48,058 bases of DNA from Anaerolineae bacterium (GTDB lineage: Bacteria > Chloroflexota > Anaerolineae > Aggregatilineales > Aggregatilineaceae). Within the stretch, counting starts at the first letter, position 1; each line of letters starts with the position of its first letter. Positions 749 through 47,677 of the stretch are shown piece after piece. Under the pieces are notes generated by a model. That model did no database searches. It was not told the origin of the DNA and saw nothing but the letters and a program-made list of their open reading frames with translations. The stretch is taken from positions 1 through 48,058 of the forward strand of contig JAFGJA010000322.1 in assembly GCA_016929355.1 (NCBI GenBank). Reading direction: 5' to 3'. The position numbers and the translations under genes were made by a program.

Positions 749-1984
749 ATGCTGCGTTTTGTCTCATTTATCATGCTAGCAACGACATGGCTTTTAATCG
801 GGATAGCCATGCTTCTAGCAGGCGTAGTGCTAGGAAGCCTCGTGTATTATCCCTGTATCTCGACAACGGCGGGGGGGTACGACTGCCGTGAGATCAATCA
901 CATCATTGCGACAGAATGGCTGCAAGATCGCATTCCTAACGATTCATTAGATACCTATTTATTCATTGGCCCGGCATTATTTACGCTCATAGGATTTTGC
1001 GCCATTTTTGTGGCCCTTCAGATACTTGATCTAACCCTGCGCCGTCATAACCCAAACCAGGCAACCATGGCTATTGGGTTTGGTGTGTTTTTCGTGATCT
1101 TGGTCTTAACAATACGGGCTTTTCTTGGCGGGGAGATCAAAACGCGGGCCGTTGATGCGCGCCAACTTGTTTGTGCAGAAAATCTGCCGGCGAGCATAAA
1201 CATTTCAGAAGCGACAAATGAGCCAGGATGTTTGATCCCACCGGCAAATCCTGATCATCCTTTTTACACGTTCCTAAACATCGACAAAATTAACCAACTC
1301 CGGCGCGGCTTGGTGCTGTTGAGCGCCTGGATTTTGGGTTTGTCGTTGGTTCTGCTGTCCGAATCCACTCGCCCCCCGACTACCGTGCAGCACCAACTCG
1401 AACGGTATGGCGAGGATGTGAGTTGTGAGCGTTGTGGGGCTGTGCCCACTGATGGCGAAACGACACCGTTATGCATTTTATGTATGCATTATTTTGAACC
1501 GAAAGCCACCATCCACGATGCCCAGACCGAATACAAGGAAGGCGATACCATACGTCTGGATATTGAAATTACGCCCAAAGACAATATCCCGATGCGAAAT
1601 GCCGTAATCACGCTGCGCGTGGGTCAATTCTTGAACATCACAAACTACCCAACTGAAAAATCCTGGGAAGCGCGGCCTAACTACCAGGGATCAGTCTGCA
1701 CACAAGTCGAGTTTGTTGGACCAAAAGTTATCGCCACCCAACAAACTATTCCGGTAACGCTAAACGTGCATGAAAGTGTCCAACACCAACGCCGCGCCAA
1801 ACAGGCAGCGATGATTACCATTGAAGCCCACGCGACAGAATACAGCGCAATAGAAGCACAACCAATCAAAGAACACATCACACTGGTTCGCCCGCCTAGT
1901 AGACTTGAAAACATGGAACAATATATGATGAACCACGCGAAGCGGCTACGGTTCTGGCAGCCGCCGGCGGACCTATCAGAATAA
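749..1984 (+). CDS. Polytopic membrane protein with a cytoplasmic CxxC-x12-CxxC zinc-ribbon and a beta-rich C-terminal domain (hypothetical)
   Basis: ATG with a GAGGTAGGA SD-like element upstream. About 4 hydrophobic helices (FIMLATTWLLIGIAMLLAGVVLG, LFIGPALFTLIGFCAIFVAL, MAIGFGVFFVILVLTI, LVLLSAWILGLSLVLL). CERCGAVPTDGETTPLCILC at nt 1424-1483. Confidence 0.75.
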   Translation: MLRFVSFIMLATTWLLIGIAMLLAGVVLGSLVYYPCISTTAGGYDCREINHIIATEWLQDRIPNDSLDTYLFIGPALFTLIGFCAIFVALQILDLTLRRHNPNQATMAIGFGVFFVILVLTIRAFLGGEIKTRAVDARQLVCAENLPASINISEATNEPGCLIPPANPDHPFYTFLNIDKINQLRRGLVLLSAWILGLSLVLLSESTRPPTTVQHQLERYGEDVSCERCGAVPTDGETTPLCILCMHYFEPKATIHDAQTEYKEGDTIRLDIEITPKDNIPMRNAVITLRVGQFLNITNYPTEKSWEARPNYQGSVCTQVEFVGPKVIATQQTIPVTLNVHESVQHQRRAKQAAMITIEAHATEYSAIEAQPIKEHITLVRPPSRLENMEQYMMNHAKRLRFWQPPADLSE

Positions 1985-2009
1985 TGAGTGCGGGAAAGAG
2001 GAAACTTAC

Positions 2010-3140
2010 ATGAAGCGGCTATCCACGCTGCTGATCATCAGTGTTTTATTAGGAATCACAGGTTTGCAGGTTTGCCACGCGCAAGATGGGCCAGACTGTT
2101 CCACAACTTCTGATGTGCGCTGTATCGGCTTATCGCAAGTCAATATTGTTGGTGCAGAAGCCCTGTCCTTATATCCTGGTTTTCGCAATCCCATGCTTGA
2201 ACTGGACATTCAAATACGCGCCCCCGCCCCTCCAGGGATTGACACTGGGTATATTTACGTTGATACGATCAAACAATTGGGCAATCAGGCTCATGCGCTC
2301 AATCACTGCGAACTTGTAATCGTCGCTCTCTCAGACGAGGAAGATCAGTATCTTAAACAGCAAGCTATTATCTGGGATACAGACCGAGAACAACGAGTGC
2401 GTGTGTTTGCATTTTGCAAGCAGATCAATTTGCCCTATGGGGGCGACGCCAGCGCAGCGCGGATGCCATTTCCCAGTCAATCCACCACGATTTCGTTGGA
2501 TGATACCTCGCAGATAGATCAGACTCAGCTTAATACACTCACCGAACTCACCCACAAACTGATCGCGGCTGATTGTAGAGATAGTATTACGGGAGAACCG
2601 ATCACGCTCAGAAGCTTTCAAGCGCAGCTTGCCGTCTTTTTGATTTTCCATACAACGCCCGACGAAACCGATCCCGTTACTGATGCGTGGCAAAAATTTA
2701 AGGATGGCGGGCAAGTGTACGTGGATCAACAGCACGACGATTTTTTCACCTGTCTGCTCCCCGCCGTGAGCACGCCCATCCCGACGCCCACGCCGACCCT
2801 AACACCCACACCTCCCCCAACGTTGGGGCCGGATTTATTTACGGCAACACCGGAGCCACCCACACTTTTCAACCAGACCATTCCTGATACACCAGCCGGT
2901 GACATCAACCTGCTGGAATTACTGTTGGGAGCCGGAGGAGTGATTACAGCCGGGGTGGTTGTGATCGTGTTGACGGGTATGAAGCGAATGCGGCTGGCTT
3001 TGGGGGTGACTGCGCTGTTACTCGCGCTGGGCATTGCCCTTAGCATTCTCTTTCCGAATTTCTGGGAAAACGATCCGGCAGAAAACACGCTCGCACCATC
3101 GCCAACTCATACACCACAAGCCACGCCAGGGGAGAATTAA
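2010..3140 (+). CDS. Secreted protein with a Pro/Thr linker and a C-terminal double-TM anchor (hypothetical)
   Basis: AAGAGGAAA SD. Signal peptide MKRLSTLLIISVLLGITGLQVCHAQD. Linker TPIPTPTPTLTPTPPPT (2772-2822). Hydrophobic segments LLLGAGGVITAGVVVIVL and LALGVTALLLALGIALSILF. Confidence 0.75.
   Translation: MKRLSTLLIISVLLGITGLQVCHAQDGPDCSTTSDVRCIGLSQVNIVGAEALSLYPGFRNPMLELDIQIRAPAPPGIDTGYIYVDTIKQLGNQAHALNHCELVIVALSDEEDQYLKQQAIIWDTDREQRVRVFAFCKQINLPYGGDASAARMPFPSQSTTISLDDTSQIDQTQLNTLTELTHKLIAADCRDSITGEPITLRSFQAQLAVFLIFHTTPDETDPVTDAWQKFKDGGQVYVDQQHDDFFTCLLPAVSTPIPTPTPTLTPTPPPTLGPDLFTATPEPPTLFNQTIPDTPAGDINLLELLLGAGGVITAGVVVIVLTGMKRMRLALGVTALLLALGIALSILFPNFWENDPAENTLAPSPTHTPQATPGEN
2772..2822 (+). 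repeat. Pro/Thr-rich linker-coding low-complexity tract (ACN-CCN repeats)
   Basis: Encodes TPIPTPTPTLTPTPPPT. Confidence 0.85.
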
Positions 3141-3142: not shown

Positions 3143-5782
3143 ATGAATCGTCACATCATGGCTCTGGTCGTCATTATCCTGCTGGGCATCAGCATACTGC
3201 TTAACCTGAATTCGGCACTGGCCCAGAACGATCCCCATCCGGCGCTGCTGCTGGTCATTTTGTTAGATGATTCGAGCACCATGTCAGGCATAAATTCAGC
3301 GAACACCGTTGGCTATTCCGTCCTGACCGGGCGCGATCCATCTGATCCGGCTGACGGGCAAGGCGATGGATTATCGACAGGCACGCGCGATGAAGCGGTG
3401 CGCAGCGTGCTCTATTTGCTGGCGAACGATACGCAACAAGCGCATCAGGTGGCGATCATCCAATTCAGTTCGGGAGAAACAACACGCTGGCTCGGTGATG
3501 ACCCGGATACGCCATTCTTTTATACCATTGGTGGTCCTTCATTCAATCGCCAAACCGGATTGAATGCGATCATCAGCCAACTTGACAATCGCCCCGTTTG
3601 GGCAGGCGATTTGAATCCCGGTCCAAGCGATATTGCCACAACACTGGCTAAAGCCGAACAAGCGATTAAGGTGCGTGTCAGTCAAAATTCTGGTAAACCC
3701 GCGATTCTGCTGGTCGCCGACGATGTACCGATGGAAGCACCCTGGAGCGGCCCCGACAAAGCGAATCCCTGGAAACCATTCTCACCTGATCAATTAGTAC
3801 AGTGGACCAGCCGCTATATTCCAGCGCTGGATCAAACGCTGGATATTCTGCGTAACTATCCTGCGTACAATACAACCTGTGCCAACACAATTAACGGCCA
3901 ATCGCAAGGTATTCCAGTGGGAGTGATGGCGCTCGGTGCGGCGAATTGGATCGGCTATGATGGGACTATCGCTGAAGGCACACCCCCCGATGCCTATTAC
4001 CAGCGTATGGTTCAAAGCCTGAGCGATGCCCCCCTTTTTTACACCATTGATCCCAACCTGACACTGGATACAAACCAATTGTACGATGCGTTTCGGACAG
4101 CCAGCACAAGTTTTGTGCGCGATGTGCGCTGTATTAATGCCCAGGATATGCAGCCAACAGTCGCCAACAGCCAGGATATACAGTACACGTTGTCCGTTTC
4201 AAACTTTGATAGTCAGATTCATTTTGTGTTCGATGTATATGATCCGACAATGCAAGTAGTCCCGGAAATTACCCCGGCCCGGTCCAACACAGTCTATACG
4301 TATACTGACGCCAAAGATGCGTCCGCCTCGCGTCAGCTTTCACCAGATGGCGTATGGCGCGAAATCTGGACCTTTAACCATCAGGGGAATTGGGCAGGTG
4401 ATTGGACGATTCGTTTTCCAGGCAACACACAAATCAGGTCGATTACAGCCGAAAAAATAACGGACTCGACCAATCTAACTCTTATCCCTGATCGCAGCCA
4501 ATATGCCGTTGTAGGAGCCGAAGATATTCAGTTCACAGCCGAACTCAAAGCGGGAGATTGGCCGATCTATCATTCCGATCCGTTAATTGACCATATAGAA
4601 GCAACCGTGGCGGGCGAAACATTTCCGGTGACGTTCACGGACGATGATAAACTACTCATCCGTCCCCCGACGGGCAATCTTCCCAATGCGGGACGGCAAT
4701 CTTTTGCGGTGACAGTCTACTTCAAATCCGATGAGTTCGCACCCTGGACTCATGAAATTGCCGACTTTTTCACGTTTTCAGAAGAAATAACGCGGGGCGA
4801 CATCAGCCCTAATAATGGGGATACATGGACCTGCACACTCAGAGAGGATAGCAACGAATTCGGCCAACCGTTTACAGTTCGTTTTGTCAAACCGGAGTCT
4901 ATCAGCAGCGAGGGCGTATTTAACTATATTCGGGTGCAAGTTTACGCCGAGAATCCCGTCGAAAATCCTGCGGCAGAACCCATCGCGCGCCTGCTCTGGG
5001 ATCAATACACAGAAAACTCCACCGCATTTAAAGGCGTAATTCCGTGCGAAAAACTGACACCCAGTAACCAACAAGAGCGCATCTGGATCAAAGCCGAATT
5101 TGCCGATAATACGCCGATTTTTGCCGCGCAGGAGTGGGCTTATGTTCTGGCTCCTACGCCCACGCCACTGCCCACGCTTGTACCCACCCCTTCGATGCTG
5201 CCCACGCCTACCCCGGTTCCACCGGATCAGAAAAATATTGTTGATGAAACGACAGAATTATTCGACAGTGGCGAACCTGGCTACTGGTTGGTGTTAGCTA
5301 TCGGCAGCGCATTAGGCTTGGTCGCGGTGCTGCGCGGCGCACAGATCATACGTTGGTATCTGATGCCACTCTCGTATGTATCGTATACCTTTACCTACCA
5401 GGGGCAGCGCGAGGCTATGCGTCGTGCGCTCGTATGGTATTTGTTGGGGATGCCTTTCAAGTATTCCACGATGATTCCGCGCCACCACATGCCCAGGAAA
5501 AACCGAACGGCGGAGCAGCAGCAACCACCGGCAACACTTGAAGAATCCGCAACAGCGACACCAGATGAAACGCGATCCCAATCGACGCATCCGCAATTGC
5601 GCATCAGGGCTAATCCCGGCGAACTGGGCTTATATATTCAAGCCCCGCCCATCGGGATGATCCGGCTGGATCAACAATTGCTACAAAATCAGGAAACACG
5701 TTACGTGAATCGCAAAAAAATCACTATCCGTATTGGATCAGACTATGAGATCGTTATCCATAATCGCCGCGCCCGTTTCTAA
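3143..5782 (+). CDS. vWA-domain single-pass membrane protein (paralog D, most divergent) with a cytoplasmic FHA-like tail
   Basis: GGGGAGAA SD. Signal peptide ...LNLNSALAQND. MIDAS-like LVILLDDSSTMSG (DxSxT variant). Later ILLVADD strand. PT linker at 5153-5224. TM GYWLVLAIGSALGLVAVL. Roughly 150-aa tail ending ...ITIRIGSDYEIVIHNRRARF. Confidence 0.8.
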   Translation: MNRHIMALVVIILLGISILLNLNSALAQNDPHPALLLVILLDDSSTMSGINSANTVGYSVLTGRDPSDPADGQGDGLSTGTRDEAVRSVLYLLANDTQQAHQVAIIQFSSGETTRWLGDDPDTPFFYTIGGPSFNRQTGLNAIISQLDNRPVWAGDLNPGPSDIATTLAKAEQAIKVRVSQNSGKPAILLVADDVPMEAPWSGPDKANPWKPFSPDQLVQWTSRYIPALDQTLDILRNYPAYNTTCANTINGQSQGIPVGVMALGAANWIGYDGTIAEGTPPDAYYQRMVQSLSDAPLFYTIDPNLTLDTNQLYDAFRTASTSFVRDVRCINAQDMQPTVANSQDIQYTLSVSNFDSQIHFVFDVYDPTMQVVPEITPARSNTVYTYTDAKDASASRQLSPDGVWREIWTFNHQGNWAGDWTIRFPGNTQIRSITAEKITDSTNLTLIPDRSQYAVVGAEDIQFTAELKAGDWPIYHSDPLIDHIEATVAGETFPVTFTDDDKLLIRPPTGNLPNAGRQSFAVTVYFKSDEFAPWTHEIADFFTFSEEITRGDISPNNGDTWTCTLREDSNEFGQPFTVRFVKPESISSEGVFNYIRVQVYAENPVENPAAEPIARLLWDQYTENSTAFKGVIPCEKLTPSNQQERIWIKAEFADNTPIFAAQEWAYVLAPTPTPLPTLVPTPSMLPTPTPVPPDQKNIVDETTELFDSGEPGYWLVLAIGSALGLVAVLRGAQIIRWYLMPLSYVSYTFTYQGQREAMRRALVWYLLGMPFKYSTMIPRHHMPRKNRTAEQQQPPATLEESATATPDETRSQSTHPQLRIRANPGELGLYIQAPPIGMIRLDQQLLQNQETRYVNRKKITIRIGSDYEIVIHNRRARF
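5153..5224 (+). repeat. Pro/Thr-rich linker-coding low-complexity tract
   Basis: Encodes PTPTPLPTLVPTPSMLPTPTPVPP, immediately before the TM of vWA paralog D. Confidence 0.85.
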
Positions 5783-5803: not shown

Positions 5804-8800
5804 ATGAAAAATACCACGCCGATCAACCTACGTCCCACCTTGATCATCGGCCTGGGGGGATCCGGTTCCCGTATCGCTGTGCAACTCAAAGCGCGGTTGG
5901 AAGACGAACTAGGCAGTGATAGTAACTATCACCGGGCGATCAAAATCCTGTGTTTGGATACGGCCAATGAAAAATTTACGGCTCTCCAACCCAATCACCC
6001 CGATCGTGAACCGGTGCGCCTCGCGCCGGATCGGGAATATGTGCGGATCAGCGATGTGCCGTTATATGACTTGATGCGCAGTAAGGAAACCAATGAAGCT
6101 ATCGCCTCGATTTTCCCCGAAGTCCTGCACTCGACTCAAATCGATCAAGGGGCACAGCAGGTCCGGCGGTTGGGACGTATTGCGTTGTTTTATCACTATG
6201 GCCGGATCAAAGAAAAGATCAGCCAGGCAATCCGCGCGCTGCGGCAAATGGATGTAATGGATCGATTGGGTCCGATTGACGATGAGAAAGAACTCTATGT
6301 CGCGGATCGCCAACGACTGCGCGTGTTTGTGCTGAGTTCACTTTGTGGGGGAACCGGTGCCGGCATTTTTATCGACATCGCGTATCTGGCGCGCCATCTG
6401 GCATTGGATGCCGGAGTCCCTTCGACACGTGCGGTGGACGTGATCGGAATGCTGCTGCTGCCGGAAGCGTTTCCTGAAATCTCGACAACGGGCGGCGCAC
6501 GCATCCGGGCTAACGCCTATGCATCACTGCTTGACCTGGAATACTACAATCAAGCCACCGAAGCCGATGAAAAACTCTACCGGGTGGATTTGCCGGGTGA
6601 ACGAATCGAAGTGACGGGCAGTCCATTTTCGCTGTGCTACCTGATTAACAGCAGTGGCCCGCCCGGTACAATGCGCGGGGTGGCCGATCTCGCGCCCATG
6701 TTGGCGGACAGTCTCATGTTGATGATCACCAGCCGCATGGGTGAACAACTTGACGCCACCCTGGATAATGTGCGCGCGTCGCTCACCGTCTATCACGGTG
6801 GATACCGCGCATTTTATAGCGCGCTGGGCATGGCGCAAATCGTTTATCCTTTCGTATGGCTCAAGCAGCAATTTGGACAACGGCTCAAGCGAGAAATCAT
6901 CGAGCGGTTCATTTTGCCGCAAAATATATCCCTGCGCGACACACGCGACGCTGCCCAAAAATGGTTTAATGAGCAGCAAAACTGGATGCGGGCCGAACTT
7001 GACACTGACTTGTTATCGCTTAAGGAAGATGTGGTCAATCGTCTGAAAAATTTCGCGGAAGAAACTCACCTGTATCCTAATCCTACCGCGCAGTTGCAGA
7101 CCGAATACCGCACGTGCGTCCGCCAATTTGAACAGACTATCATCACGCAGGTGCATGATAATGCGGTGGATGTCGAACGACGCTTACGAACGCAACTCAA
7201 CCACGCAGTGGATGATTTTATTGACAAGGGCTTGACCGCAGAGCCGCCGTGCGGTCTCAGTTGGACGCTCACATGGTTGGATGATCTGGCGGCGATAATC
7301 TACAACGAGCTTGAAAACCCAAGTTATCTCGATCATAACGCCCCCTTGAGCGAACACCTGCAAAAAATCTACGCCGTCAACGCCATGCCCTTGCTTGGCG
7401 AGTGGTGGGGACGTAAGCGCAGTATTCCCAGAGCTGCGTATGATCTCAGTGACTACCTGGAAAACCGAGCGGATCGCATCGTCATCGAAAACGAAATGCG
7501 TAACATCTTTCTGAGCAGCATACGGTGGATTGAACAGCATCGTGATCAGGTCAATGCCGCGATCCAGTTCTGGGACCGCGAAAGACGCCGCAGTCAGGAA
7601 CAGGAAAAACCGCAGTACACGCTCGTGACCCAAACCGTCATTGATGAACACGAACTCAACCAACATCTTGCGGCAAAACTGCGCGAAATCCTGCCGGCAG
7701 AAGATGACCAAACCGGCCATGCGTCTCACCTGGACCTGAGAAAACAGGTCGAAAATGCCTTTAAAGATGCGACGAATGGGCAAAGTGGATTATCCCGGTC
7801 ATTGGACCTTAGCACGCGCGAGGAAATTCAGCGTGCGCTGACCCATCTCTGCATGTCGTATTATGATGCAATCACGGATCGGGGGGATGTAATCGAGCAT
7901 CTCAACGAACTCTCCCCCATTCGCCGCGAGGACATGATCCGATCCCTGGGTGATATGGCGCAACCGTTGTTGAGCTACAGTAAAGGACTGCTGCAAGCCA
8001 TTCCGCCGCGCATCATACAGGTGCTAGGAGCCAAAACGCAAAGCGCTGCCGAAGATCATATCCGTCCCCTGATTGGGGATCAGATGGACCTCAGCACAGT
8101 GGCAACACACAATCAAGCCACCACCGCCCTACTAATCACCCATCATGGCATCCCGATTTCGGCGCTTGCCAAACTTGAAACCTATCGGGGGCACTACGAA
8201 CAACTGCAAGACGAACCCAACGCAATTTTCCACCTGGACACAGAGCGCGAAAACGCGCCCTATGATCCGGGATCGTTCTACTTCGTCAATCTGGCCGATT
8301 TCCATACCTATTTCGCCAGGACGCTCGCCTATAACTGGCTGGTGCGCACCCAATACCAGCTTCGCCGCTCGGATAACCGGGTGGATTTACAGGATACCTT
8401 TGCTTTTGACAGCGCGTTTTTCAGCTATTTTTCCATTGCGATTAATCGCCAAATCACGATTATTAACAATGAGATTGAAGCGCTCGAAAACCGCATGGTA
8501 GATCGTTTTACGCTGGATGATTTCACCGTTGGCAAAACGCAGCGTCGATTAAAGCAGTTACACACCATGAACAATGAACTGCAACAGTATCTGGCAACCT
8601 GTATCCCGGCTAGAAACCTTGAAGATGGAGTATTGGTCCTCAACCGAAATGAACACGATTACGCTGATTTCCATGTCATCATGCGCCCCCCGGAAGGACG
8701 CGAACACCCCACGATCCCGGCCCAGACGTTGATTCAGACGCGAGATGCCATCTTTCGCGGGCAATCACGGCTCGTGCCGCAGTTTTTCATTGAGGCTGTC

Positions 8801-42488: not shown

Positions 42489-43370
42489 CTACAACGAAGT
42501 TCGATCAATGTCGTCACGATATAATGCGGGGTACCACCCTGGCAAGTCCAGATCGTCCCGATAATACGACACCTGCCGGAACTCTAAGGTGGCGGATTCC
42601 AAATCATCTGATAATGTGACTACCACGTAAGTGGGTGTGTTATCTGGCACACGAGGAAACCCCACACTACCGGGATTGACATAGAGTGGGTGTTCGCTTA
42701 ACCCACTGAACGTATGTTGTCCTGTTTTGTGATTCGGGACAGGTTTGGCGGTTTGATCGCTGGCATCCCAGTGCCATATACCAGATACATGAGTATGTGC
42801 CGTGATAATTATACGCAGGGCCTCAGCCCTGGGCAAACGAACCAGCAAGCTGCGCACCGCATCTCCGATCCGCGCGTCACTGTCGTTAGTTTGTGAATAG
42901 GCCCGCACTACATCCACGCTGCCATCGTCACAGAGCGCATAATGCGCATGGGCGACATAGATTCCCGGACGTGGTGGTTCAGTCGCATACGGGTGAAGTT
43001 GGTTCAAAAAGTTCCTTATCTCGTCCCCGCGCACATATTTATCCAATTCCTCGCGGTTTTTTTCGCCCGTGAAAGTCGCCAGTTTACCATTGCCGCCGAC
43101 CACCGACCCATCTACGTGCCCATGCAATACTTTATCGAGAATCACCATCTCATGGTTGCCGATCAACCATGCCCGCCGGTCACGCGGCGCTTGTTGTTGG
43201 TAGACCGGCCATAACAAATTCAGCGTCTTAACTGCATTAGGCCCACGCCCAATCATATCACCGAGACACCACACTACTTTGATTTTCTGCGCAGCAATGT
43301 CATCCAGCACGGCGCTGGTAGCTGCATTGTTGGCATGAGTATCTGCGATAATAGCAATCCGTTCACTCAT
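42489..43370 (-). CDS. Calcineurin-like metallophosphoesterase with PPP/ApaH-type motifs (candidate Ser/Thr phosphoprotein phosphatase)
   Basis: The ORF track starts at GTG 43391. ATG 43370 has GGGGGA 5 nt upstream and puts motif I near the N-terminus: IAIIADTHAN (DxH), CLGDMIGRGP (GDxxDRG-like), LIGNHE (GNHE), ITAHTHV, NPGSVG. Confidence 0.8.
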   Translation of the reverse strand: MSERIAIIADTHANNAATSAVLDDIAAQKIKVVWCLGDMIGRGPNAVKTLNLLWPVYQQQAPRDRRAWLIGNHEMVILDKVLHGHVDGSVVGGNGKLATFTGEKNREELDKYVRGDEIRNFLNQLHPYATEPPRPGIYVAHAHYALCDDGSVDVVRAYSQTNDSDARIGDAVRSLLVRLPRAEALRIIITAHTHVSGIWHWDASDQTAKPVPNHKTGQHTFSGLSEHPLYVNPGSVGFPRVPDNTPTYVVVTLSDDLESATLEFRQVSYYRDDLDLPGWYPALYRDDIDRTSL

Positions 43371-43393
43371 AACATCCCCCACATTGAGCACAT

Positions 43394-46300
43394 TTACCGA
43401 CTCGCCCGTCTAGCCTCTAATAATACAGGATGATTTTCCAAGTTAGTCACTTGCGGATTTTGCGGGCAAAGCCGACGCAATCCGACCAACATCTGATCGG
43501 CTTCTTGCACAAGTGGCGTCAAACGCTGGCGACGTTTACGGCGATTCATACGCACTGTCAACACTTCATCCATAGCCGTCAACAAACCGTTAAACTCAAC
43601 GCGCCGCCGATCCCAATCCGCCTCAACCGTGTTAATCCGCGCTAACTCATGATGAACCTCTTCAACATATTGGTTGTAACGCTGGTAACGGTGACGCTCC
43701 ATCCATTCCAGAATGTTCCGTCCACGCCTGGACCCGGCGCGTTTCTGTGCTAGCGCATAATCGGCCAGCGCGTTATCTTCCGCAACCGGCGGGGTACTCA
43801 CGGCTTCCAACGCTTTTTGCAGCCCGATTTTATCAGCGTAAGTGGGATCATCGAACCCATACAGCGCCCCTTCTACCAATTGCTGCGCCAGGACAAAATT
43901 CCCCTTCTCCTGCTCAATCACCGCTCGCTGTTTAATCTGCGGCCATACAATCACAGCAGGATCGGGTTGCGCCGTTTGGTTGAGAAGTTCTTCCGGTTGG
44001 ACTATATTAGGCGCACCAAATTGCTGCGACCAATCAACTATAATTTCAAACTGCCGGAGTCTCATACTAATCAACTGCAAGATCGCATCCCACCCCATCA
44101 CATCGCTGTCGGTCCAAACGTCACGCACACGCACTTCGCGGTATAACATCATCTCCTTGAACATATTTTTGTAAATACGTGTTTCCTCGACAGTTTTTGC
44201 TTTTTGCGCGGCCTCAACGAAGCGCTCAGCGCGCATATCATCCTGAACACCCGTCAACAGATTGACAAGATCACGTAGTTCAGAAAAACGTTTATCGAAG
44301 CGGGATTTCAGATCATCCTCAACCCAGGGATGCTGATCAAGATCGTCCTCAATCGCACGCACTTCAGCCAGGAAATTCTCCCACGCCTGTCGATATTCGC
44401 GTTCGAAATCATGCCAATTGTTATTGCCATCATCACGCGGTTCATAGTTGCGCACAAAGTTCTCAAACGATTCACCCGCATTCAGGAAATGCTGAAGTTT
44501 TCCGCGCAGTTCATCTAATGCCGGAATCTGTTCCGCACAGGTTCTAATCAGGAGCGTCCCATGCTCACGCAACGCATCAAGACCGTGGAACAATTCAACC
44601 AAATCGCGGATGAGGCGCACATAGTTCAGGTAATTCACAACTGCAACGCGCTTATTCTCCAATGCTTTTCGCGCCTGCCCAACAGAAATGCCTTCAGGGG
44701 AAAACGCCCTGGCGTATAGGCGATCTACATCCTCCACAATCACCCCAGAAAGCTGTGTGAGCTGACGCAACATCCAGACACCTGCCGGATCATCTTCATC
44801 TAACACTAGCAATTTCGCATAGAGCGGCAGTGTATCCGGTGTCAACCCGACATAATTATCCGGGTCGTTCCCGCCGAGGCGTTGCAGTGCTTCGCGCAAA
44901 TCCGCCTGAACTTGATGCACCCGTTCGTCAAACCAACGCTGCAAGGCGGGAAGTGTTTCGCGGCATGGGGCGAATGCCTCATCCCAACGATCATACGCCT
45001 GTTGAAACAGCGCAAGTTCGACAGCAACTTGCAACCGCTCTTCTACTTCGCGCATAGAATCGCCAATGGCGGGTCCCGCCAGCGCAACCTGAATATACTC
45101 CTTCGCATGGTCGATGACGTGGCGCTGGTTTGGCGCAAGTTTATCTTTTTCTGCGGTACGAATCTGGTTTTCCAACGCACGGGCAATGTCACTCACATCA
45201 TGGAGCAGTTCACGGCGCGTTTTCAGATCGGGCGTATACTGCGCATGAGTCAACATGACTCGGATGCGCCACACCAAATATTGAGTGTGATCGATGGGAT
45301 CCGCCGTATCGGTGGCATCTTCCGCTAACTCGCGCGCGATCTCGATCAATTCGCTGATCCACTCGCTCACGGCGTCGGCATTCAAACCGCGCTCTCCCGG
45401 CTCTAGCAAACGGTCAATCTGCATTTCTTTTTGCTGTTTTTTGACTGCCGCAATTTGTTTGCGGATGTAAGCCACATCTTCCCAACTGGGGTGCGACTCG
45501 AGCAACGTTTGCCATTGTTCAATCGCCGCATCAAGGTGTTTGGCATTCGCATGATCACGCGCCAACTGTGCCCCTTCATAAAGCCGGTAGCGTCGCCGCA
45601 CACGCTGCGCTTGATCGGGATCGAGATCACCGAGATCGGTCAATGCTTCCTGAAATTCAGCCCGATCAAACTCGGTATCGATTTTAAGATTATTGAATCG
45701 CCCCAAAATCTGTTGGACCCACTGCACACGTGCATCTTCCAAAAACCGATCACGGGTGCGGCGTTCGGTCAGATTGACAAAATTCTTGATACTTTGCAGT
45801 TGGCGATACGCCTCGCCGGGACGACCTTCAGCCAATAATTGTTGCCCGCGCGTCAATGTATCCCGATCCCGATCCAATTCACGGGACCGGTGACGGATGT
45901 CTTCCAACCGGTCAATGAGTTTATTGCGCAAATCGTTTTGCAGACCATCCCCGGTGATAGTGTGCTCAAGCTGCGCGATCACCTCATCATAACCTTCACT
46001 AGCTAATAACCGATCCAGATCCAAAAATAACAAATGTGCATCGAGATTCAACGCCAGATCATCAAACTCCTGAGTAAACGCTGTATCTCGTTCGGAAGCT
46101 GTGCGCGCGGCATCGAGAGCACGCTGCACTCTATCGCGGCGCGGATTCCCCAAATATTCACGCAACCGCTCCAATTCTGCTTCTGCGTTCAAGCGCAGCG
46201 TAACTTCGCCTTTCAAACGCTCATAGAGGGGATGCACTTCATAGTATTGGCGTAGATGGAAATCATTTTCCAGAGCGCGCATGATTCTTGCTGCGGCATC

Positions 46301-47677
46301 CAGATTATCGTTATGCAACTGCCCATCAATTTGATCGAGTTTATCCTGAACCTCGCGCAGGGCGGTATGCATGTCATCTATCAAGCGCAGATGCGAGTCA
46401 ATCCGAAGCTCCCTTTGCATCGGTTGGAACGTATCCAGAATAATTTTGGTGCGATGCATAGCCTCTTCTGGATTTTGCTGCTGAATCAATCCTTCTAGCT
46501 GGGCGCTATCTTCTTCCAACAGTAAGTTGGCGGTGGTTTCCAGCGCACTCCGCACGTTATCAACTTTATCTGAATAATGTGCCCCTTCGTAAGCACGCAG
46601 GGCATCCTCGTAATAACGCCAAGCCTGCACAATATCACGATCCAACACATTGGTCGCTGCCTCGGCATGTCGTTCTGCCTCATTCAGTTTTTCCAATGCC
46701 TGATCGATGAGATCACCTAAATTTTCAATCTGGCGTATCCGGTCTGAAGAGAGCCAATCGTTACCAAGCAGTTCTGCTAATGAAACAGGTCGAAGCTCTA
46801 TCGCACCTAATGCGCCAGCCTCCAGGCCAGGGTCTTCAGGCTCTTCGAATTTGCGATACTCATTTAATGTCTCCAGTGCGGCACGTGGCTTGTAGTTATC
46901 CAGATGACGGCGGGCTGTATCAATGTAATCCACCACACGCCCATCAATAAACCCGCGAGCCTGCGCGGCGGCGTGCTCACGAGCTTGTGCTTTGGGGTGA
47001 CGTGTGCCAATATTGCCGCGCCCGTCCACCACTGGCACGAGTTCCCCATCAGGAACCGAATCAATAAAGACCAGGGTTTTGACATACTGCCCCAATAATG
47101 CCCCAGATGTCAGCGCTTCAGTTTCTATCGTGGCGCGTTCACGGCGAGCACGTGCCTGCTGTGCCAATTCCTGTAATCGGGTGTTCCCCTCGTGATCGGC
47201 AGAGGCATCACGCGCAATTTCATACGCCCGATCATAAAGTTCTTTTAATACGCTCGCGGTGGCGCTGCTTTCGCTCTCGCGTTGCGCGCGCTCCCACAGA
47301 TCATTAACCTCATTGTAGATAGTGAGATAATCCAGATATTTGGCTTGTTCAGCACGCAGCGCACGCACGCGCCGAATATAGCTTTCCAGTTCGGCATCAG
47401 AGTCGCTAATGACCGCGCGCTGCCAGAGCGCAATCCATTCATCAACGACATGATCACGGTCAAAATCCACCAGATCGCGGGCCATCTCTACATCGAGTTC
47501 AGCCTGTGCTTGATCGATAGCGGCGCGAGCCTGGTGGCGTATAGTTTTGCGTACTTCACCGAGATCGGTAGTTAGTTCAAGATCGGCTTCGTGTTCCTGT
47601 GTATAACGATAAGCATCCCCATACCGACCTAGATTGCGCAAACGCTCTACTTCATTAAAATACTGGTCAATTGCCAC
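43394..47677 (-). CDS. 1427-aa cytoplasmic all-alpha repeat / coiled-coil protein (hypothetical scaffold); first gene of the minus-strand array
   Basis: GTG start with AAGGGTGA upstream. No TM or signal peptide. TPR-like helical hairpins (e.g. ERLRNLGRYGDAYRYTQ, LLAEGRPGEAYRQLQSI). Charged helical composition throughout. No catalytic motif recognised. Confidence 0.7.
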   Translation of the reverse strand: MAIDQYFNEVERLRNLGRYGDAYRYTQEHEADLELTTDLGEVRKTIRHQARAAIDQAQAELDVEMARDLVDFDRDHVVDEWIALWQRAVISDSDAELESYIRRVRALRAEQAKYLDYLTIYNEVNDLWERAQRESESSATASVLKELYDRAYEIARDASADHEGNTRLQELAQQARARRERATIETEALTSGALLGQYVKTLVFIDSVPDGELVPVVDGRGNIGTRHPKAQAREHAAAQARGFIDGRVVDYIDTARRHLDNYKPRAALETLNEYRKFEEPEDPGLEAGALGAIELRPVSLAELLGNDWLSSDRIRQIENLGDLIDQALEKLNEAERHAEAATNVLDRDIVQAWRYYEDALRAYEGAHYSDKVDNVRSALETTANLLLEEDSAQLEGLIQQQNPEEAMHRTKIILDTFQPMQRELRIDSHLRLIDDMHTALREVQDKLDQIDGQLHNDNLDAAARIMRALENDFHLRQYYEVHPLYERLKGEVTLRLNAEAELERLREYLGNPRRDRVQRALDAARTASERDTAFTQEFDDLALNLDAHLLFLDLDRLLASEGYDEVIAQLEHTITGDGLQNDLRNKLIDRLEDIRHRSRELDRDRDTLTRGQQLLAEGRPGEAYRQLQSIKNFVNLTERRTRDRFLEDARVQWVQQILGRFNNLKIDTEFDRAEFQEALTDLGDLDPDQAQRVRRRYRLYEGAQLARDHANAKHLDAAIEQWQTLLESHPSWEDVAYIRKQIAAVKKQQKEMQIDRLLEPGERGLNADAVSEWISELIEIARELAEDATDTADPIDHTQYLVWRIRVMLTHAQYTPDLKTRRELLHDVSDIARALENQIRTAEKDKLAPNQRHVIDHAKEYIQVALAGPAIGDSMREVEERLQVAVELALFQQAYDRWDEAFAPCRETLPALQRWFDERVHQVQADLREALQRLGGNDPDNYVGLTPDTLPLYAKLLVLDEDDPAGVWMLRQLTQLSGVIVEDVDRLYARAFSPEGISVGQARKALENKRVAVVNYLNYVRLIRDLVELFHGLDALREHGTLLIRTCAEQIPALDELRGKLQHFLNAGESFENFVRNYEPRDDGNNNWHDFEREYRQAWENFLAEVRAIEDDLDQHPWVEDDLKSRFDKRFSELRDLVNLLTGVQDDMRAERFVEAAQKAKTVEETRIYKNMFKEMMLYREVRVRDVWTDSDVMGWDAILQLISMRLRQFEIIVDWSQQFGAPNIVQPEELLNQTAQPDPAVIVWPQIKQRAVIEQEKGNFVLAQQLVEGALYGFDDPTYADKIGLQKALEAVSTPPVAEDNALADYALAQKRAGSRRGRNILEWMERHRYQRYNQYVEEVHHELARINTVEADWDRRRVEFNGLLTAMDEVLTVRMNRRKRRQRLTPLVQEADQMLVGLRRLCPQNPQVTNLENHPVLLEARRASR

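What the first reader, a model, noticed from the sequence alone, without database searches (positions are those of the whole stretch)
749..47677. Iterated vWA membrane-receptor / giant tubulin-like GTPase modules: five of each in one locus
**Seen in sequence.**
- Five proteins share the plan signal peptide, vWA with a MIDAS DxSxS motif, beta-sandwich region, one TM, cytoplasmic tail (3143-5782, 13704-16376, 27265-29985, 39412-42444, and the N-terminus of 17825-23377).
- Paralogs A, B and C share FG[SN]VNLGNT (A and B), TD[GS]xPC and VPPYQ motifs.
- Five 950-1250-aa regions share N-terminal [IL]GLGGSG-type and GGTGAG-type loops plus an [AN]xxAALRE[LT] motif (5804-9076, 9073-11946, 23488-27231, 36188-39412, and the C-terminus of the fusion).
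- A vWA gene lies directly 5' of a tubulin-like gene three times.

**Established knowledge.**
- GGGTG[ST]G is the tubulin/FtsZ signature.
- Large bacterial 'Tubulin_2' proteins correspond, as far as I recall, to the FtsZl-1 family that Makarova and Koonin (2010) proposed to act in membrane remodelling. No mechanism or phenotype is known to me.

**Inference.**
- The locus encodes a multi-subunit transmembrane machine in which extracellular vWA (integrin-I-domain-like) modules are coupled to a cytoplasmic tubulin-like polymer.
- Candidate roles are surface adhesion or gliding of a filamentous bacterium, envelope remodelling, or an NTPase-based conflict/defence system.
- The degree of in-locus paralogy (5+5) is unusual.
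Basis: partly seen in the sequence, partly recalled or inferred. Interest (0 to 1): 0.92.

Follow-up and report, generated by a model that had tools for sequence, protein, structure and literature searches.

The report
Expanded vWA / tubulin-like (FtsZl1) membrane locus
This 47-kb locus from an Anaerolineae-like bacterium is an unusually large version of an operon type predicted in 2010 but never tested, which pairs cell-surface vWA receptors with cytoplasmic tubulin-like proteins; the linkage is not new, but the locus shows how the two sides are joined across the membrane.

Summary
The window has five Tubulin_2 (FtsZl1) domains and five membrane-anchored extracellular vWA proteins, one pair fused in a single 1850-aa protein. 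A vWA gene lies directly 5' of a tubulin-like gene three times.

Corrections:
- Only two tubulin-like proteins (5804-9076, 23488-27231) keep the GGTGAG GTP loop. The other three are degenerate, and their orthologs are too.
- The first vWA protein has DxSxT, not DxSxS.

The central inference is already published. Makarova & Koonin (2010) described vWA + FtsZl1 + GTPase operons. Kaur et al. (2020) re-read tubulin + vWA + DO-GTPase neighbourhoods as conflict systems. I found no experimental study.

What this analysis adds:
- An AlphaFold model of the first tubulin-like protein matches FtsZ, CetZ and tubulin.
- The vWA protein models as an adhesin/integrin/ANTXR2-like type I receptor with a conserved cytoplasmic β-domain.
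- Across about 22 loci, each intact, soluble Tubulin_2 is followed by a degenerate paralog with a transmembrane hairpin.
- vWA–propeller–Tubulin_2 fusions recur.
- The three-module superlocus is conserved in other Anaerolineae metagenome-assembled genomes.

The most likely mechanism is outside-in coupling of vWA receptors to membrane-anchored tubulin-like GTPase assemblies. The biological role (conflict response or envelope remodelling) is unresolved. It is a new variant of a known kind, of moderate interest.

The parts
749..1984 (+). g01. Membrane protein of 411 aa with 4 TMs, followed by a CxxC-x13-CxxC zinc-ribbon-like motif and a soluble C-terminal part. First gene of module A.
   Evidence: TM scan and sequence. 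Orthologs occupy the same position in L001 and L087/L088. No Pfam family.
2010..3140 (+). g02. Protein of 376 aa with a signal peptide and 2 C-terminal TMs. Module A.
   Evidence: TM scan. Orthologs occupy the same position in L001, L003 and L087.
3143..5782 (+). g03. Divergent vWA receptor of module A: signal peptide, vWA with a DDSST (DxSxT) MIDAS variant, β-rich ectodomain, TM at 715-733, 146-aa cytoplasmic tail.
   Evidence: No Pfam hit. hhalign of its family against the g08 family gives probability 99.3%, E 1.6e-20. Iterated vWA HMM gives 2e-19. TM scan.
5804..9076 (+). g04. Soluble Tubulin_2/FtsZl1 protein of 1090 aa with intact T1 (IGLGGSG), T3 and T4 (GGTGAG) loops. It has an FtsZ-like N-terminal domain (about 1-370), a long helical stalk, an α/β domain (about 736-868) and a helical C-terminus.
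   Evidence: Pfam 8.6e-54. AlphaFold pLDDT 86.4. Foldseek top hits are FtsZ, CetZ and tubulin. Loops.
9073..11946 (+). g05. Degenerate Tubulin_2 paralog of 957 aa (T1 IGLGEDS, T4 TDPFASG) with a mid-protein hydrophobic hairpin (481-499 and 502-522). Predicted membrane anchor and partner of g04.
   Evidence: Pfam 1.8e-9. Loops. The hairpin and its conservation in the downstream paralog of about 22 loci are shown.
11974..12996 (+). g06. DO-GTPase-family P-loop GTPase of 340 aa (GTSRAGKT, DAPGE, VKVD). Last gene of module A.
   Evidence: Pfam DO-GTPase2 1e-9 (38.8 bits, cut-off 27) and DO-GTPase1 3.9e-8. Sequence. Orthologs at the same position in L001, L003 and L008.
12963..13685 (-). g07. N-terminally TM-anchored CAP/YkwD-domain protein of 240 aa. 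Last gene of the minus-strand operon. Its domain is fused to propeller-Tubulin_2 proteins elsewhere.
   Evidence: Pfam CAP 3.2e-21. CAP appears in the fusion relatives P0128-P0130, P0135 and P0136. The 1686-aa CAP-PD40-Tubulin_2 protein of L086 hits g07 at 3e-20.
13704..16376 (-). g08. vWA receptor of 890 aa: signal peptide, vWA (DQSGS MIDAS) at 43-278, about five β-sandwich domains at 291-725, TM at 728-758, conserved cytoplasmic β-domain at 766-874.
   Evidence: Pfam VWA_2 4.8e-12. AlphaFold pLDDT 87.9. Foldseek matches SpaC adhesin, integrin αXβ2, ANTXR2 and C3/A2M MG domains.
16348..17799 (-). g09. Highly acidic, apparently disordered protein of 483 aa. A gene sits at this position in relatives, but its sequence is not conserved.
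   Evidence: Sequence. No Pfam or PDB match. ORFs of 440 and 617 aa occupy the same position in L084 and L085, with no phmmer hit.
17825..23377 (-). g10. Fusion protein of 1850 aa: signal peptide, vWA (DTSSS) at 94-269, TM at 440, TM at 478, PD40/TolB-like β-propeller at about 630-780, TM at 825, degenerate Tubulin_2 (T4 SDDVGSG) at 886-1239, helical C-terminus.
   Evidence: Pfam VWA 9.7e-25, PD40 1.6e-12, Tubulin_2 1.1e-16. TMs. The architecture is conserved in P0122-P0136. Loops.
23488..27231 (-). g11. Soluble Tubulin_2 protein of 1247 aa with intact IGLGGSG and GGTGAG loops. Active partner in module B.
   Evidence: Pfam 3.5e-41. Loops. Orthologs in L001, L008, L084 and L085.
27265..29994 (-). 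g12. vWA receptor of 909 aa (DQSGS), paralog of g08, with a TM at 771-789 and a 120-aa tail.
   Evidence: Pfam VWA_2 5.6e-6. BLASTP against g08 gives 1.1e-50. TM scan.
30022..31605 (-). g13. Predicted lipoprotein of 527 aa (LLAAC lipobox) with a Pro/Thr linker and Ig-like β domains.
   Evidence: Sequence. Weak Big_1/Invasin_D3 hits at 0.03-0.04. A 576-aa Invasin_D3-like protein sits at the equivalent position in L084.
31636..33039 (-). g14. Protein of 467 aa with one N-terminal TM and an extracytoplasmic part. A possible C-terminal SH3-like region is very weakly supported.
   Evidence: TM scan. Pfam SH3_3 at 0.66 only.
33029..35020 (-). g15. Cytoplasmic helical/coiled-coil protein of 663 aa.
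   Evidence: Only coiled-coil-type weak hits. PADLOC ZorA3 tail region at 1.7e-4.
35023..36171 (-). g16. Protein of 382 aa with kinase-like motifs (GKGMVGAIY…VVKV, DRKVKD, IIDWN). Possible atypical kinase or pseudokinase.
   Evidence: Pfam APH at 0.014, below threshold. Motifs read from the sequence. No PDB hit. The 1183-aa protein of L084 hits it at 4e-10.
36188..39412 (-). g17. Degenerate, soluble Tubulin_2 protein of 1074 aa (T1 LGIGRIG, T4 DELVGSA). Module C.
   Evidence: Pfam 1.3e-10. Loops. No TM apart from a T1-region artefact.
39412..42480 (-). g18. vWA receptor of 1022 aa (DLSGS), a distant paralog of g08 and g12, with a TM at 868-886 and a 136-aa tail.
   Evidence: Pfam VWA_2 at 0.007, below the cut-off. 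BLASTP against g08 and g12 gives 8e-6 and 4e-7. It shares the TDSLPC and VPPYQ motifs. Iterated HMM gives 2.8e-27, but that profile was seeded with g18's own vWA domain.
42489..43391 (-). g19. Calcineurin-like phosphoesterase of 300 aa (DxH, GDxxxRG, GNHE).
   Evidence: Pfam Metallophos 1.6e-12. Weak NCBIfam YfcE/ApaH-type phosphodiesterase hits. An ortholog lies next to a g20-like gene in L001.
43394..47677 (-). g20. Cytoplasmic, mostly helical protein of 1427 aa from no known family. First gene of the minus-strand operon.
   Evidence: No significant Pfam, PDB or PADLOC match. A 1466-aa ortholog in L001 scores 6e-23.

Best explanation
The locus is a three-module expansion of the FtsZl1 (Pfam Tubulin_2) / vWA / GTPase system predicted by Makarova & Koonin (2010), in an Anaerolineae-like Chloroflexota genome.

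**Shown**
- Five type I or polytopic membrane proteins are predicted to display a vWA domain and tandem β-sandwich domains outside the cell. The four stand-alone ones also carry a cytoplasmic tail; in g08, g12 and g18 it is a conserved β-domain of about 110 aa, while g03's tail differs.
- Five tubulin-superfamily proteins lie on the cytoplasmic side.
- Two of them (g04, g11) are soluble and keep the GTP-binding loops.
- Three are degenerate. Of these, g05 is tied to the membrane by a hydrophobic hairpin and g10 is fused through three TMs to a vWA domain and a β-propeller.

**Inferred mechanism**
1. A ligand binds at the extracellular MIDAS site, or the receptors cluster.
2. The signal passes across the membrane to the tails and to the membrane-anchored dead paralogs.
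3. These recruit or nucleate the active paralogs into GTP-dependent hetero-oligomers on the inner membrane face.
4. The long helical stalks then scaffold or remodel the membrane.
5. The DO-GTPase g06, and possibly a kinase-like protein (g16) and a phosphoesterase (g19), set the threshold.

I consider a triggered envelope or conflict response somewhat more likely than constitutive housekeeping remodelling (about 0.4 against 0.35). The data do not decide between them.
For: **Family membership and fold**
- Tubulin_2 is above threshold five times.
- The AlphaFold model of g04 (pLDDT 86.4) matches FtsZ, CetZ and tubulin in nearly all of the top 50 Foldseek hits, at probability 1.0 and target-normalised TM-score 0.42-0.50.

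**Receptor nature of the vWA proteins**
- The AlphaFold model of g08 (pLDDT 87.9) matches SpaC adhesin, integrin αXβ2 and ANTXR2.

**Physical coupling across the membrane**
- The g10 fusion is conserved in at least 15 protein clusters down to 26% identity.
- A second vWA+Tubulin_2 fusion class and a CAP-propeller-Tubulin_2 fusion also exist.

**Conserved linkage**
- A vWA ORF lies within 10 kb in 56 of 83 Tubulin_2 loci across many phyla. It is nearly always on the same strand and directly 5'.

**Active/dead pairing**
- Every Tubulin_2 with an intact T4 loop lacks a TM.
- In about 22 distinct loci the next gene is a T4-degenerate paralog, nearly always with a mid-protein TM hairpin.

**Regulators**
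- A DO-GTPase sits at the conserved position.
- FHA (16 of 144), PP2C (6) and Ser/Thr kinase (5) are the commonest operon partners in distant loci.

**Conflict-type context in relatives**
- TIR and ThsA_Macro genes sit within or beside the superlocus in L087/L088, and a TIR+FHA gene lies near L003.
- MmeI fragments lie beside L085. Macro domains occur in 7 partner ORFs.
- Kaur et al. classify tubulin + vWA + DO-GTPase neighbourhoods as conflict systems.
Against: - No interaction between the vWA tails and any Tubulin_2 protein was tested.
- The g04 model shows helices where FtsZ has its C-terminal β-domain. No T7 catalytic loop could be identified (secondary structure). Makarova & Koonin made the same point. 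Polymerisation is therefore an assumption.
- Three of the five paralogs probably cannot bind GTP.
- No PADLOC model matches any Tubulin_2, vWA or DO-GTPase gene here. The only hits are weak and off-target (g07 to PD-T4-6 at about 0.006, g15 to the ZorA3 tail at 1.7e-4).
- GAP1, the defining partner of DO-GTPase systems, is absent.
- Gene order is kept across orthologs sharing only 37-47% identity with g04. This suggests long vertical retention, which is more typical of housekeeping machinery.
- The defence-gene neighbours were seen in a few loci only, with no background statistics.
- The tail domain matches no known family, and the FHA idea was not supported.
Confidence: 0.55

Rival explanations
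1. Constitutive membrane-remodelling or cytoskeletal machine, the original Makarova-Koonin reading. FtsZl1 polymers anchored to vWA membrane proteins would shape the membrane, septa, cell-cell junctions or vesicles of a filamentous bacterium as part of normal growth, with no link to conflict.
For: - Proposed in PMC2875224.
- Gene order is conserved across deeply diverged Anaerolineae metagenome-assembled genomes.
- The long helical stalk and the membrane hairpin recall dynamin-like proteins. There is a weak Foldseek hit to the bacterial dynamin-like protein BDLP at probability 0.75.
- FHA, PP2C and Ser/Thr kinase partners also typify regulation of cell-envelope growth (the comparison rests on general knowledge).
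- No known defence model matches the core Tubulin_2, vWA or DO-GTPase genes.
Against: - Distribution is patchy and the partner genes vary strongly by lineage.
- Paralogs and positional partners diverge very quickly; g09 is an example.
- TIR, Macro and restriction-modification genes are neighbours in some loci.
- The BDLP match has a TM-score of only 0.12-0.17.
Confidence: 0.3
2. Surface adhesion or gliding apparatus, one of the first reader's candidate roles. vWA adhesins would be moved or tensioned by a cytoplasmic tubulin-like track.
For: - The closest structural match of g08 is the pilus-tip adhesin SpaC, followed by integrin.
- The locus encodes extracellular CAP, Ig-like and β-propeller modules.
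- The host lineage is filamentous (general knowledge about Anaerolineae).
Against: - No motor, pilus, sortase or known gliding genes are in the window.
- The same vWA-Tubulin_2 pair occurs in many organisms from phyla with very different lifestyles.
- Three of the five tubulin-like proteins lack GTP-binding loops.
Confidence: 0.07
3. Non-polymerising signalling scaffold. The Tubulin_2 domains would act as GTP-regulated switches or pseudo-GTPase adaptors (dimers, not filaments) that relay receptor state to effectors such as the phosphoesterase g19, without remodelling the membrane.
For: - The FtsZ C-terminal domain and a recognisable T7 loop are missing.
- Most paralogs here are dead.
- The consistent 1:1 active/dead gene pairing suggests heterodimers.
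- Phospho-signalling partners are frequent.
Against: - According to Makarova & Koonin's reply to their reviewer, every characterised member of the FtsZ/tubulin superfamily forms filaments.
- Stalks of about 350 residues and total sizes near 1000 aa are large for a simple switch.
Confidence: 0.2

Closest known systems
FtsZl1 / vWA / GTPase operons (Makarova & Koonin 2010, Biol Direct 5:33; Pfam Tubulin_2 PF13809)
   Same: [quoted passage not shown]
- A vWA gene with an intact MIDAS motif, a signal peptide and a TM in the same operon.
- A diverged P-loop GTPase.
- Many lineage-specific membrane proteins.
- Chloroflexi were already among the sampled lineages.
   Different: - Three modules with 5+5 copies on 47 kb, rather than one pair.
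- A vWA-propeller-Tubulin_2 fusion.
- Conserved pairing of an active soluble paralog with a dead membrane-anchored one. The text I read does not mention this.
- No OmpA protein and no canonical protein kinase.
GAP1-N2-type DO-GTPase conflict systems, tubulin theme (Kaur, Burroughs, Iyer & Aravind 2020, eLife 9:e52696)
   Same: - A DO-GTPase.
- Two or more tubulin-domain proteins with helical C-terminal extensions.
- vWA proteins with TM helices and an extracellular vWA domain.
- A calcineurin-like phosphoesterase of the kind listed as an effector.
- Association with multicellular or filamentous lineages.
   Different: - No GAP1 (N2, M or C domains) and no FNIII component detected by Pfam.
- Only one DO-GTPase, with no zinc ribbon.
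- The paper restricts the tubulin theme to Firmicutes and Actinobacteria. The closest relatives of this locus are Anaerolineae.
FtsZ with its membrane anchors (FtsA, ZipA, SepF), and αβ-tubulin / BtubAB heterodimers
   Same: - An FtsZ/tubulin GTPase fold.
- A soluble GTP-binding subunit that needs a membrane tether.
- Pairing of two paralogous subunits that differ in nucleotide chemistry. This analogy rests on general knowledge.
   Different: - The tether here is itself a degenerate tubulin-family paralog, either inserted by a hairpin or fused to a receptor.
- No FtsZ_C or Tubulin_C domain, and no PF00091 hit.
- Polymerisation has not been shown.
Integrin αI-domain receptors and ANTXR2/CMG2 (eukaryotic type I vWA receptors linked to the cytoskeleton)
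   Same: - An extracellular MIDAS vWA domain plus Ig-like domains, one TM and a cytoplasmic tail.
- Foldseek matches to integrin αXβ2 (2.5e-13) and ANTXR2 (target-normalised TM-score 0.51).
   Different: - The resemblance is one of fold and layout only, at 10-12% identity.
- The cytoplasmic partner is tubulin-like rather than actin-linked.
- No homology of the tails was detected.
Dynamin-like proteins with a membrane hairpin (BDLP, mitofusin/atlastin type)
   Same: A GTPase head, a long helical bundle and a hydrophobic hairpin that inserts in the membrane (g05 type). There is a weak Foldseek match of g04 to BDLP.
   Different: - The GTPase fold is different (tubulin/FtsZ, not dynamin).
- The hairpin sits on the dead paralog.
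- The TM-score to BDLP is only 0.12-0.17, so the resemblance is at most convergent.

Membership tests
FtsZl1 / Pfam Tubulin_2 (PF13809) | Match to the family HMM above the gathering score (27 bits) | tested here: met
   The five regions score 183.6, 37.8, 61.5, 142.1 and 41.6 bits.
FtsZl1 / Pfam Tubulin_2 (PF13809) | N-terminal domain with the FtsZ/tubulin nucleotide-binding fold | tested here: met
   Tested for g04 only. AlphaFold pLDDT is 86.4. Foldseek's top 50 hits are nearly all FtsZ, CetZ or tubulin, at probability 1.0 and target-normalised TM-score 0.42-0.50.
FtsZl1 / Pfam Tubulin_2 (PF13809) | Tubulin signature loop GGGTG(S/T)G (T4) and glycine-rich T1 loop | tested here: inconclusive
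   Met in g04 and g11 (GGTGAG, GLGGSG). Not met in g05, g10 and g17 (TDPFASG, SDDVGSG, DELVGSA). The degeneracy is conserved in orthologs.
FtsZl1 / Pfam Tubulin_2 (PF13809) | Architecture: FtsZ-like domain, extended coiled-coil, α-helical C-terminal domain, no FtsZ_C or Tubulin_C | tested here: met
   Secondary structure of the g04 model: helices over 377-720 and 870-1075, with one α/β insert at 736-868. No FtsZ_C or Tubulin_C hit in Pfam.
FtsZl1 / Pfam Tubulin_2 (PF13809) | GTP-dependent filament formation (a superfamily property) | not testable with these tools
   Needs biochemistry or electron microscopy. Makarova & Koonin themselves left it open.
vWA/FtsZl1 predicted operon (Makarova & Koonin 2010) | A vWA-domain gene with an intact MIDAS motif in the same operon as FtsZl1 | tested here: met
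   Five vWA proteins: DxSxS in four and DxSxT in g03. Three are directly 5' of a Tubulin_2 gene. The same arrangement holds in 56 of 83 related loci.
vWA/FtsZl1 predicted operon (Makarova & Koonin 2010) | A diverged P-loop GTPase in the operon | tested here: met
   g06: DO-GTPase2 at 38.8 bits against a cut-off of 27, with Walker A, DAPGE and VKVD motifs.
vWA/FtsZl1 predicted operon (Makarova & Koonin 2010) | Ser/Thr protein kinase and/or OmpA-family protein (frequent, not obligatory) | tested here: inconclusive
   No Pkinase or OmpA hit in the window. g16 has kinase-like motifs, but its APH hit is only E 0.014. Kinase, PP2C and FHA genes are common partners in distant loci.
GAP1-N2-type DO-GTPase conflict system (Kaur et al. 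2020) | DO-GTPase component | tested here: met
   g06 hits DO-GTPase2 and DO-GTPase1.
GAP1-N2-type DO-GTPase conflict system (Kaur et al. 2020) | GAP1 protein (GAP1-N2, -M and -C domains) adjacent to or fused with the GTPase | tested here: not met
   No GAP1 family appears among the Pfam hits for any of the 20 proteins at E<=0.01, nor for the unassigned proteins at E<=5. The gene after g06 is on the other strand.
GAP1-N2-type DO-GTPase conflict system (Kaur et al. 2020) | FNIII-repeat component | tested here: not met
   No fn3 Pfam hit. The β-sandwich repeats of the vWA proteins match MG/Ig-like domains structurally.
GAP1-N2-type DO-GTPase conflict system (Kaur et al. 2020) | Tubulin theme: two tubulin genes with helical tails, plus vWA genes including a TM form with an extracellular vWA domain | tested here: met
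Canonical FtsZ/tubulin (PF00091 plus FtsZ_C or Tubulin_C) | Match to PF00091 and a C-terminal activation domain with a T7 loop | tested here: not met
   No PF00091, FtsZ_C or Tubulin_C hit. A profile search of PDB sequences finds no relatives. The model is helical after S6/H7.
Catalogued anti-phage defence systems (PADLOC-DB 2.0) | Match of any component to a defence-system model | tested here: not met
   Only a weak ZorA3 coiled-coil hit for g15 (1.7e-4) and PD-T4-6 hits near 0.006 for g07.

The most novel reading that the evidence does not exclude
Chloroflexota would carry a bacterial counterpart of integrin-to-cytoskeleton coupling, built from tubulin-superfamily heterodimers.

In this reading, each extracellular vWA receptor signals through its conserved cytoplasmic β-domain to a catalytically dead Tubulin_2 subunit that is inserted in the membrane. 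That subunit templates the assembly of a soluble, GTP-competent paralog into a dynamin-like membrane-remodelling polymer. The filamentous organism uses this to seal off or reshape cells in response to an external cue such as phage attack or damage to a neighbouring cell.

The active/dead, soluble/anchored gene pairing (about 22 loci) and the recurrent receptor-tubulin fusions would then be the first anatomical description of how FtsZl1 systems span the membrane.
Probability: 0.2. Interest if true: 0.85.

Novelty: new variant of a known kind. Interest (0 to 1): 0.5.

Why it matters
FtsZl1/Tubulin_2 is a large branch of the tubulin superfamily: 4426 clusters at 50% identity match at E<=1e-3. I found no experimental data on it in 16 years of literature. 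Two incompatible predicted roles stand side by side, membrane remodelling and immune conflict.

A reviewer of the 2010 paper asked how a cytoplasmic FtsZ-like protein could work with secreted vWA proteins. This locus and its relatives suggest an answer:
- The vWA proteins are TM-anchored receptors with conserved cytoplasmic domains.
- One receptor is fused to a tubulin-like domain.
- Each GTP-competent paralog is paired with a membrane-anchored dead paralog.

That turns a vague prediction into specific experiments on heterodimer formation, liposome remodelling and receptor-tail binding. It also nominates compact gene sets (g03-g06, or g12-g10) for reconstitution.

Tried and rejected
- **FHA-like tail.** I suspected that the cytoplasmic tails of g08, g12 and g18 were FHA-like. 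A profile of 29 tails found nothing in PDB sequences (best E 8.5), and no member hit FHA in Pfam. The idea is not supported. The fold could not be searched on its own.
- **GAP1 or FNIII partners.** None found.
- **Known defence systems.** PADLOC gave no meaningful hit.
- **Solved structures of relatives.** A profile of g04 orthologs hit only coiled-coil noise. g09, g16 and g20 had no PDB relatives.
- **Recent duplication.** No long DNA repeats. The only direct repeat is a 36-nt stretch that falls on the conserved juxtamembrane motif of g08 and g12.
- **Non-coding RNA or tRNA in the window.** None.
- **Left-edge ORF fragment (1-195).** I suspected a transposase, but NCBIfam gave only a sub-threshold, irrelevant hit. 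It remains unidentified.
- **Source genome.** The genome-contig scan returned no identical contig; the best match was 47% identity. The taxonomic assignment therefore rests on the best hits being Anaerolineae.
- **Search with the g06 GTPase.** An iterated search recovered it only in the five closest loci. It is not a universal partner.
- **BDLP resemblance of g04.** The TM-score is too low for the match to count as homology.

Full report
**1. What is in the window**

Positions 749-47677 are filled by 20 large ORFs. They form two convergent operons. Six genes lie on the + strand (g01-g06, 749-12996). Fourteen lie on the − strand (g20-g07, 47677 down to 12963).

- g04, 5804-9076: 8.6e-54
- g05, 9073-11946: 1.8e-9
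- g10, residues 886-1239 of 17825-23377: 1.1e-16
- g11, 23488-27231: 3.5e-41
- g17, 36188-39412: 1.3e-10

The vWA domain is supported as follows:
- g10 (9.7e-25) and g08 (4.8e-12) are clear.
- g12 is just above threshold (27.4 bits).
- g18 is below threshold (0.007).
- g03 has no Pfam hit, even at E<=5.
- g18 is tied to g08 and g12 by BLASTP (8e-6 and 4e-7) and by shared motifs.
- g03 is tied to them by profile-profile comparison of its ortholog family with the g08 family: probability 99.3%, E 1.6e-20, 418 columns. Its DDSST aligns with the DQSGS MIDAS motif.

A hydrophobicity scan gives an N-terminal signal-like segment, one C-terminal TM and a tail of 120-146 aa for g03, g08, g12 and g18. 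The fusion g10 has a signal peptide plus TMs at 440, 478 and 825.

The core count of five plus five, and three vWA-then-tubulin gene pairs, is therefore confirmed.

**2. Corrections to the observation**

- The GGTGAG loop exists only in g04 and g11.
- g10 has SDDVGSG, g05 has TDPFASG and g17 has DELVGSA. Their T1 and T3 loops are degenerate too.
- This is not recent decay. Orthologs of g10 (P0122-P0126, 62-36% identity) keep SDDV[GS]xx. Orthologs of g05 are degenerate in the same way. Orthologs of g11 keep GGTGAG.
- The motifs FG[SN]VNLGNT, TD[GS]xPC and VPPYQ belong to g08, g12 and partly g18. They do not occur in g03.
- The paralogs share 21-28% identity, and there is no DNA-level repeat structure. 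The iteration is ancient.

**3. Origin**

The best relatives of g04 are Anaerolineae metagenome-assembled genomes at 47% identity or less. No identical contig was found among the GTDB species representatives. The window therefore comes from an unsampled Anaerolineae-like member of the Chloroflexota.

**4. Fold**

*g04.* The AlphaFold model, built with 41 homologs, has mean pLDDT 86.4 and pTM 0.78.
- Foldseek against the PDB returns FtsZ, CetZ and tubulins as nearly all of the top 50 hits. Values are E from 2.6e-4, probability 1.0, about 350 aligned columns and target-normalised TM-score 0.42-0.50.
- After the nucleotide-binding domain the model is helical (377-720). It then has an α/β insert (736-868) and ends in helices.
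- I see no four-stranded FtsZ C-terminal domain and could not identify a T7 loop. This agrees with Makarova & Koonin's statement that nothing beyond helix H5 could be aligned.
- A sequence profile finds no solved relative.

*g08.* The model has pLDDT 87.9.
- It shows vWA (43-278), about five β-sandwich domains (291-725), a TM helix (728-758) and a confidently modelled cytoplasmic β-domain (766-874).
- Its best structural matches are the pilus-tip adhesin SpaC (1.7e-16), integrin αXβ2, complement and α2-macroglobulin MG domains, and ANTXR2 (target-normalised TM-score 0.51).

**5. The linkage is conserved, and already published**

A scan of one genome per GTDB species found 346 relatives. I examined the 80 loci kept from that scan plus three fetched earlier (83 in all).
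- An iterated vWA profile finds a vWA ORF within 10 kb of the Tubulin_2 gene in 56 of the 83 loci. It is almost always on the same strand and directly 5', with gaps of −100 to +700 bp.
- These loci span Chloroflexota, Melainabacteria/Cyanobacteria, Acidobacteriota, Bacteroidales, Vulcanimicrobiota, Spirochaetes and Meiothermus.
- The family is large: 4426 clusters at 50% identity match at E<=1e-3.

This is exactly what Makarova & Koonin reported in 2010. [quoted passage not shown] Santana-Molina et al. 2023 equate FtsZl1 with Tubulin_2.

Kaur et al. 2020 describe DO-GTPase/GAP1-N2 neighbourhoods with two tubulin genes and TM-anchored extracellular vWA proteins. They read them as conflict systems. 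g06 is a DO-GTPase.

Five literature searches found no experimental study.

**6. What this locus adds**

*(a) Three conserved modules.*
- Module A (g01-g06) recurs in the same order in L001, L003/L005 and L087, and in part (no g01/g02 homolog detected) in L007 and L008.
- Module B (g12-g11-g10-x-g08) recurs in L084, L085, L086 and L088.
- Module C (vWA, degenerate Tubulin_2, g16/g15-like, Ig-like protein) recurs in L084. The g20/g19/vWA part recurs in L001.
- The modules are co-located on single contigs in several assemblies. The 5+5 superlocus is therefore a lineage trait.

*(b) Rosetta-stone fusions.*
- The g10 architecture is kept in at least 15 protein clusters, down to 26% identity.
- Some of these add a CAP domain homologous to g07.
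- A shorter vWA+Tubulin_2 fusion class and a CAP-propeller-Tubulin_2 protein also exist.

*(c) Active/dead pairing.*
- In the 80-plus loci, every Tubulin_2 with an intact T4 loop lacks a TM segment.
- In about 22 distinct loci, mostly Chloroflexota, the next gene is a T4-degenerate paralog, nearly always with two hydrophobic segments mid-protein. g05 is of this type.
- In the window the pairs are g04+g05 and g11+g10, where the dead domain is tethered by fusion. g17 is a dead, soluble singleton.
- I did not see this pairing described in the parts of the two papers I read.

*(d) A conserved tail domain.* The tails of g08, g12 and g18 and their orthologs share a juxtamembrane RRxHPAxGxL motif, a β-rich domain and often a C-terminal Phe. 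No known family matches them.

*(e) Operon partners in distant loci.*
- The commonest are FHA (16 of 144 ORFs), Macro (7), PP2C (6) and Ser/Thr kinase (5).
- TIR, ThsA_Macro and MmeI genes lie beside or inside some related loci.

**7. Mechanism**

*Shown:* the topology and the domain composition.

*Inferred:*
- Extracellular vWA/MIDAS receptors report ligand binding or clustering across the membrane.
- The dead, membrane-anchored paralogs act as anchors or nucleators for the GTP-competent soluble paralogs.
- The resulting assemblies, with about 350-residue helical stalks, scaffold or remodel the membrane.
- g06 and possibly g16 and g19 tune the threshold.

This answers the topology objection raised by a reviewer of the 2010 paper. 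Polymerisation itself remains an assumption.

*Role.* I put a triggered conflict or envelope response at about 0.4, constitutive remodelling at about 0.35, adhesion or gliding below 0.1, and a non-polymerising switch as a mechanistic alternative.
- Evidence for conflict: variable partners, TIR, Macro and restriction-modification neighbours, and the DO-GTPase.
- Evidence against: no PADLOC hit to the core genes, no GAP1, and deep conservation of gene order.

**8. Verdict**

The feature is real and was mostly described correctly. Its central inference, however, has been in the literature since 2010 and 2020.

I would not file it under the GAP1-N2 DO-GTPase system, because GAP1 and FNIII were tested for and not found. 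It is a member of the FtsZl1/vWA/GTPase kind, in an expanded Chloroflexota variant.

Interest is moderate. The system is uncharacterised, and the anatomy found here (fusions, active/dead pairing with a membrane hairpin, a receptor tail domain) makes it directly testable.

Noticed in passing
window 12963-12996: The two operons converge, and their last genes overlap by 34 bp at their 3' ends: g06 ends at 12996 on + and g07 ends at 12963 on −. One terminator-like hairpin lies at 13021-13003 on the − strand, which is no more than chance would give.
   Followed up: partly
window 1-748: An ORF running off the left edge ends at 195 with an Arg/His-rich C-terminus (…WSFWRRQHQARAKAAHYRRHLARSPA). From memory it resembles IS-element transposase C-termini, but NCBIfam gave only an irrelevant sub-threshold hit. 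Positions 196-748 hold only short ORFs (54-65 aa). The first 2 kb has the lowest GC content in the window (0.47).
   Followed up: partly
window 16348-17799 (g09): An extremely acidic, apparently disordered 483-aa protein lies between the fusion gene and g08. ORFs of 440 and 617 aa sit at the same position in L084 and L085 but show no detectable sequence similarity. The slot is conserved while its content diverges quickly.
   Followed up: partly
window 13707-14102, 27268-27612, 39415-39807 (tails of g08, g12, g18); DNA repeat 14073-14108 / 27583-27618: The cytoplasmic tails share a juxtamembrane RRxHPAxGxL motif and a β-rich domain of about 110 aa. Many orthologs end in a C-terminal Phe (…MMTF, …EARF, …LSSF). 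No known family matches. This may be a docking module for the tubulin-like proteins.
   Followed up: partly
L087 1163-2317 and 16215-16781; L088 14090-15244; L003 19920-20768; L085 380-1791: Defence-type genes lie inside or beside related superloci. A TIR protein sits between modules B and A, and a ThsA_Macro gene lies nearby, on contig ctg315253. A TIR_2+FHA protein lies near L003. MmeI restriction-modification fragments lie next to L085. No background statistics were computed.
   Followed up: partly
L010-L083, same-strand neighbours of Tubulin_2: Across distant loci the most frequent operon partners are FHA (16 of 144 ORFs), Macro (7), PP2C (6), Ser/Thr kinase (5) and TPR proteins. Many Melainabacteria and Obscuribacterales loci have an ORF of about 206 aa just downstream of the Tubulin_2 gene. 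I suspect these account for the Macro hits, but I did not check individually.
   Followed up: partly
L085 3371-9902: In this ENA contig the g12-like vWA gene is split into three ORFs (113, 180 and 593 aa) and the g11-like Tubulin_2 gene into two (567 and 665 aa). In L087 the g05-like gene is split into three pieces. This could be pseudogenisation or assembly frameshifts.
   Followed up: no
window 33029-35020 (g15): The coiled-coil region (residues 389-552) weakly matches the tail region of the PADLOC ZorA3 model (E 1.7e-4). This is probably compositional coiled-coil similarity.
   Followed up: no
window 35023-36171 (g16); L084 17449-21000: g16 carries protein-kinase-like motifs (Gly-rich loop + VVKV, DRKVKD, IIDWN), but its only Pfam hit is a sub-threshold APH match (0.014). 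A 1183-aa protein in L084 matches g16 (4e-10) and also contains a coiled-coil region. It may be a fusion of g16- and g15-like parts.
   Followed up: partly
window 749-1984 (g01): After its four TMs, g01 has a CxxC-x13-CxxC motif (CERCGAVPTDGETTPLCILC) that looks like a zinc ribbon. Kaur et al. report zinc ribbons fused to DO-GTPases. Here the GTPase g06 has none, and the motif sits on a separate membrane protein of the same operon.
   Followed up: no
L086 392-5452: A 1686-aa protein on a 3.68-Mb contig combines a CAP domain (homologous to g07, 3e-20), a PD40/Tricorn-type propeller and Tubulin_2. It lies directly after a vWA-propeller-Tubulin_2 fusion. The extracellular head of these fusions is therefore interchangeable between vWA and CAP.
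   Followed up: partly
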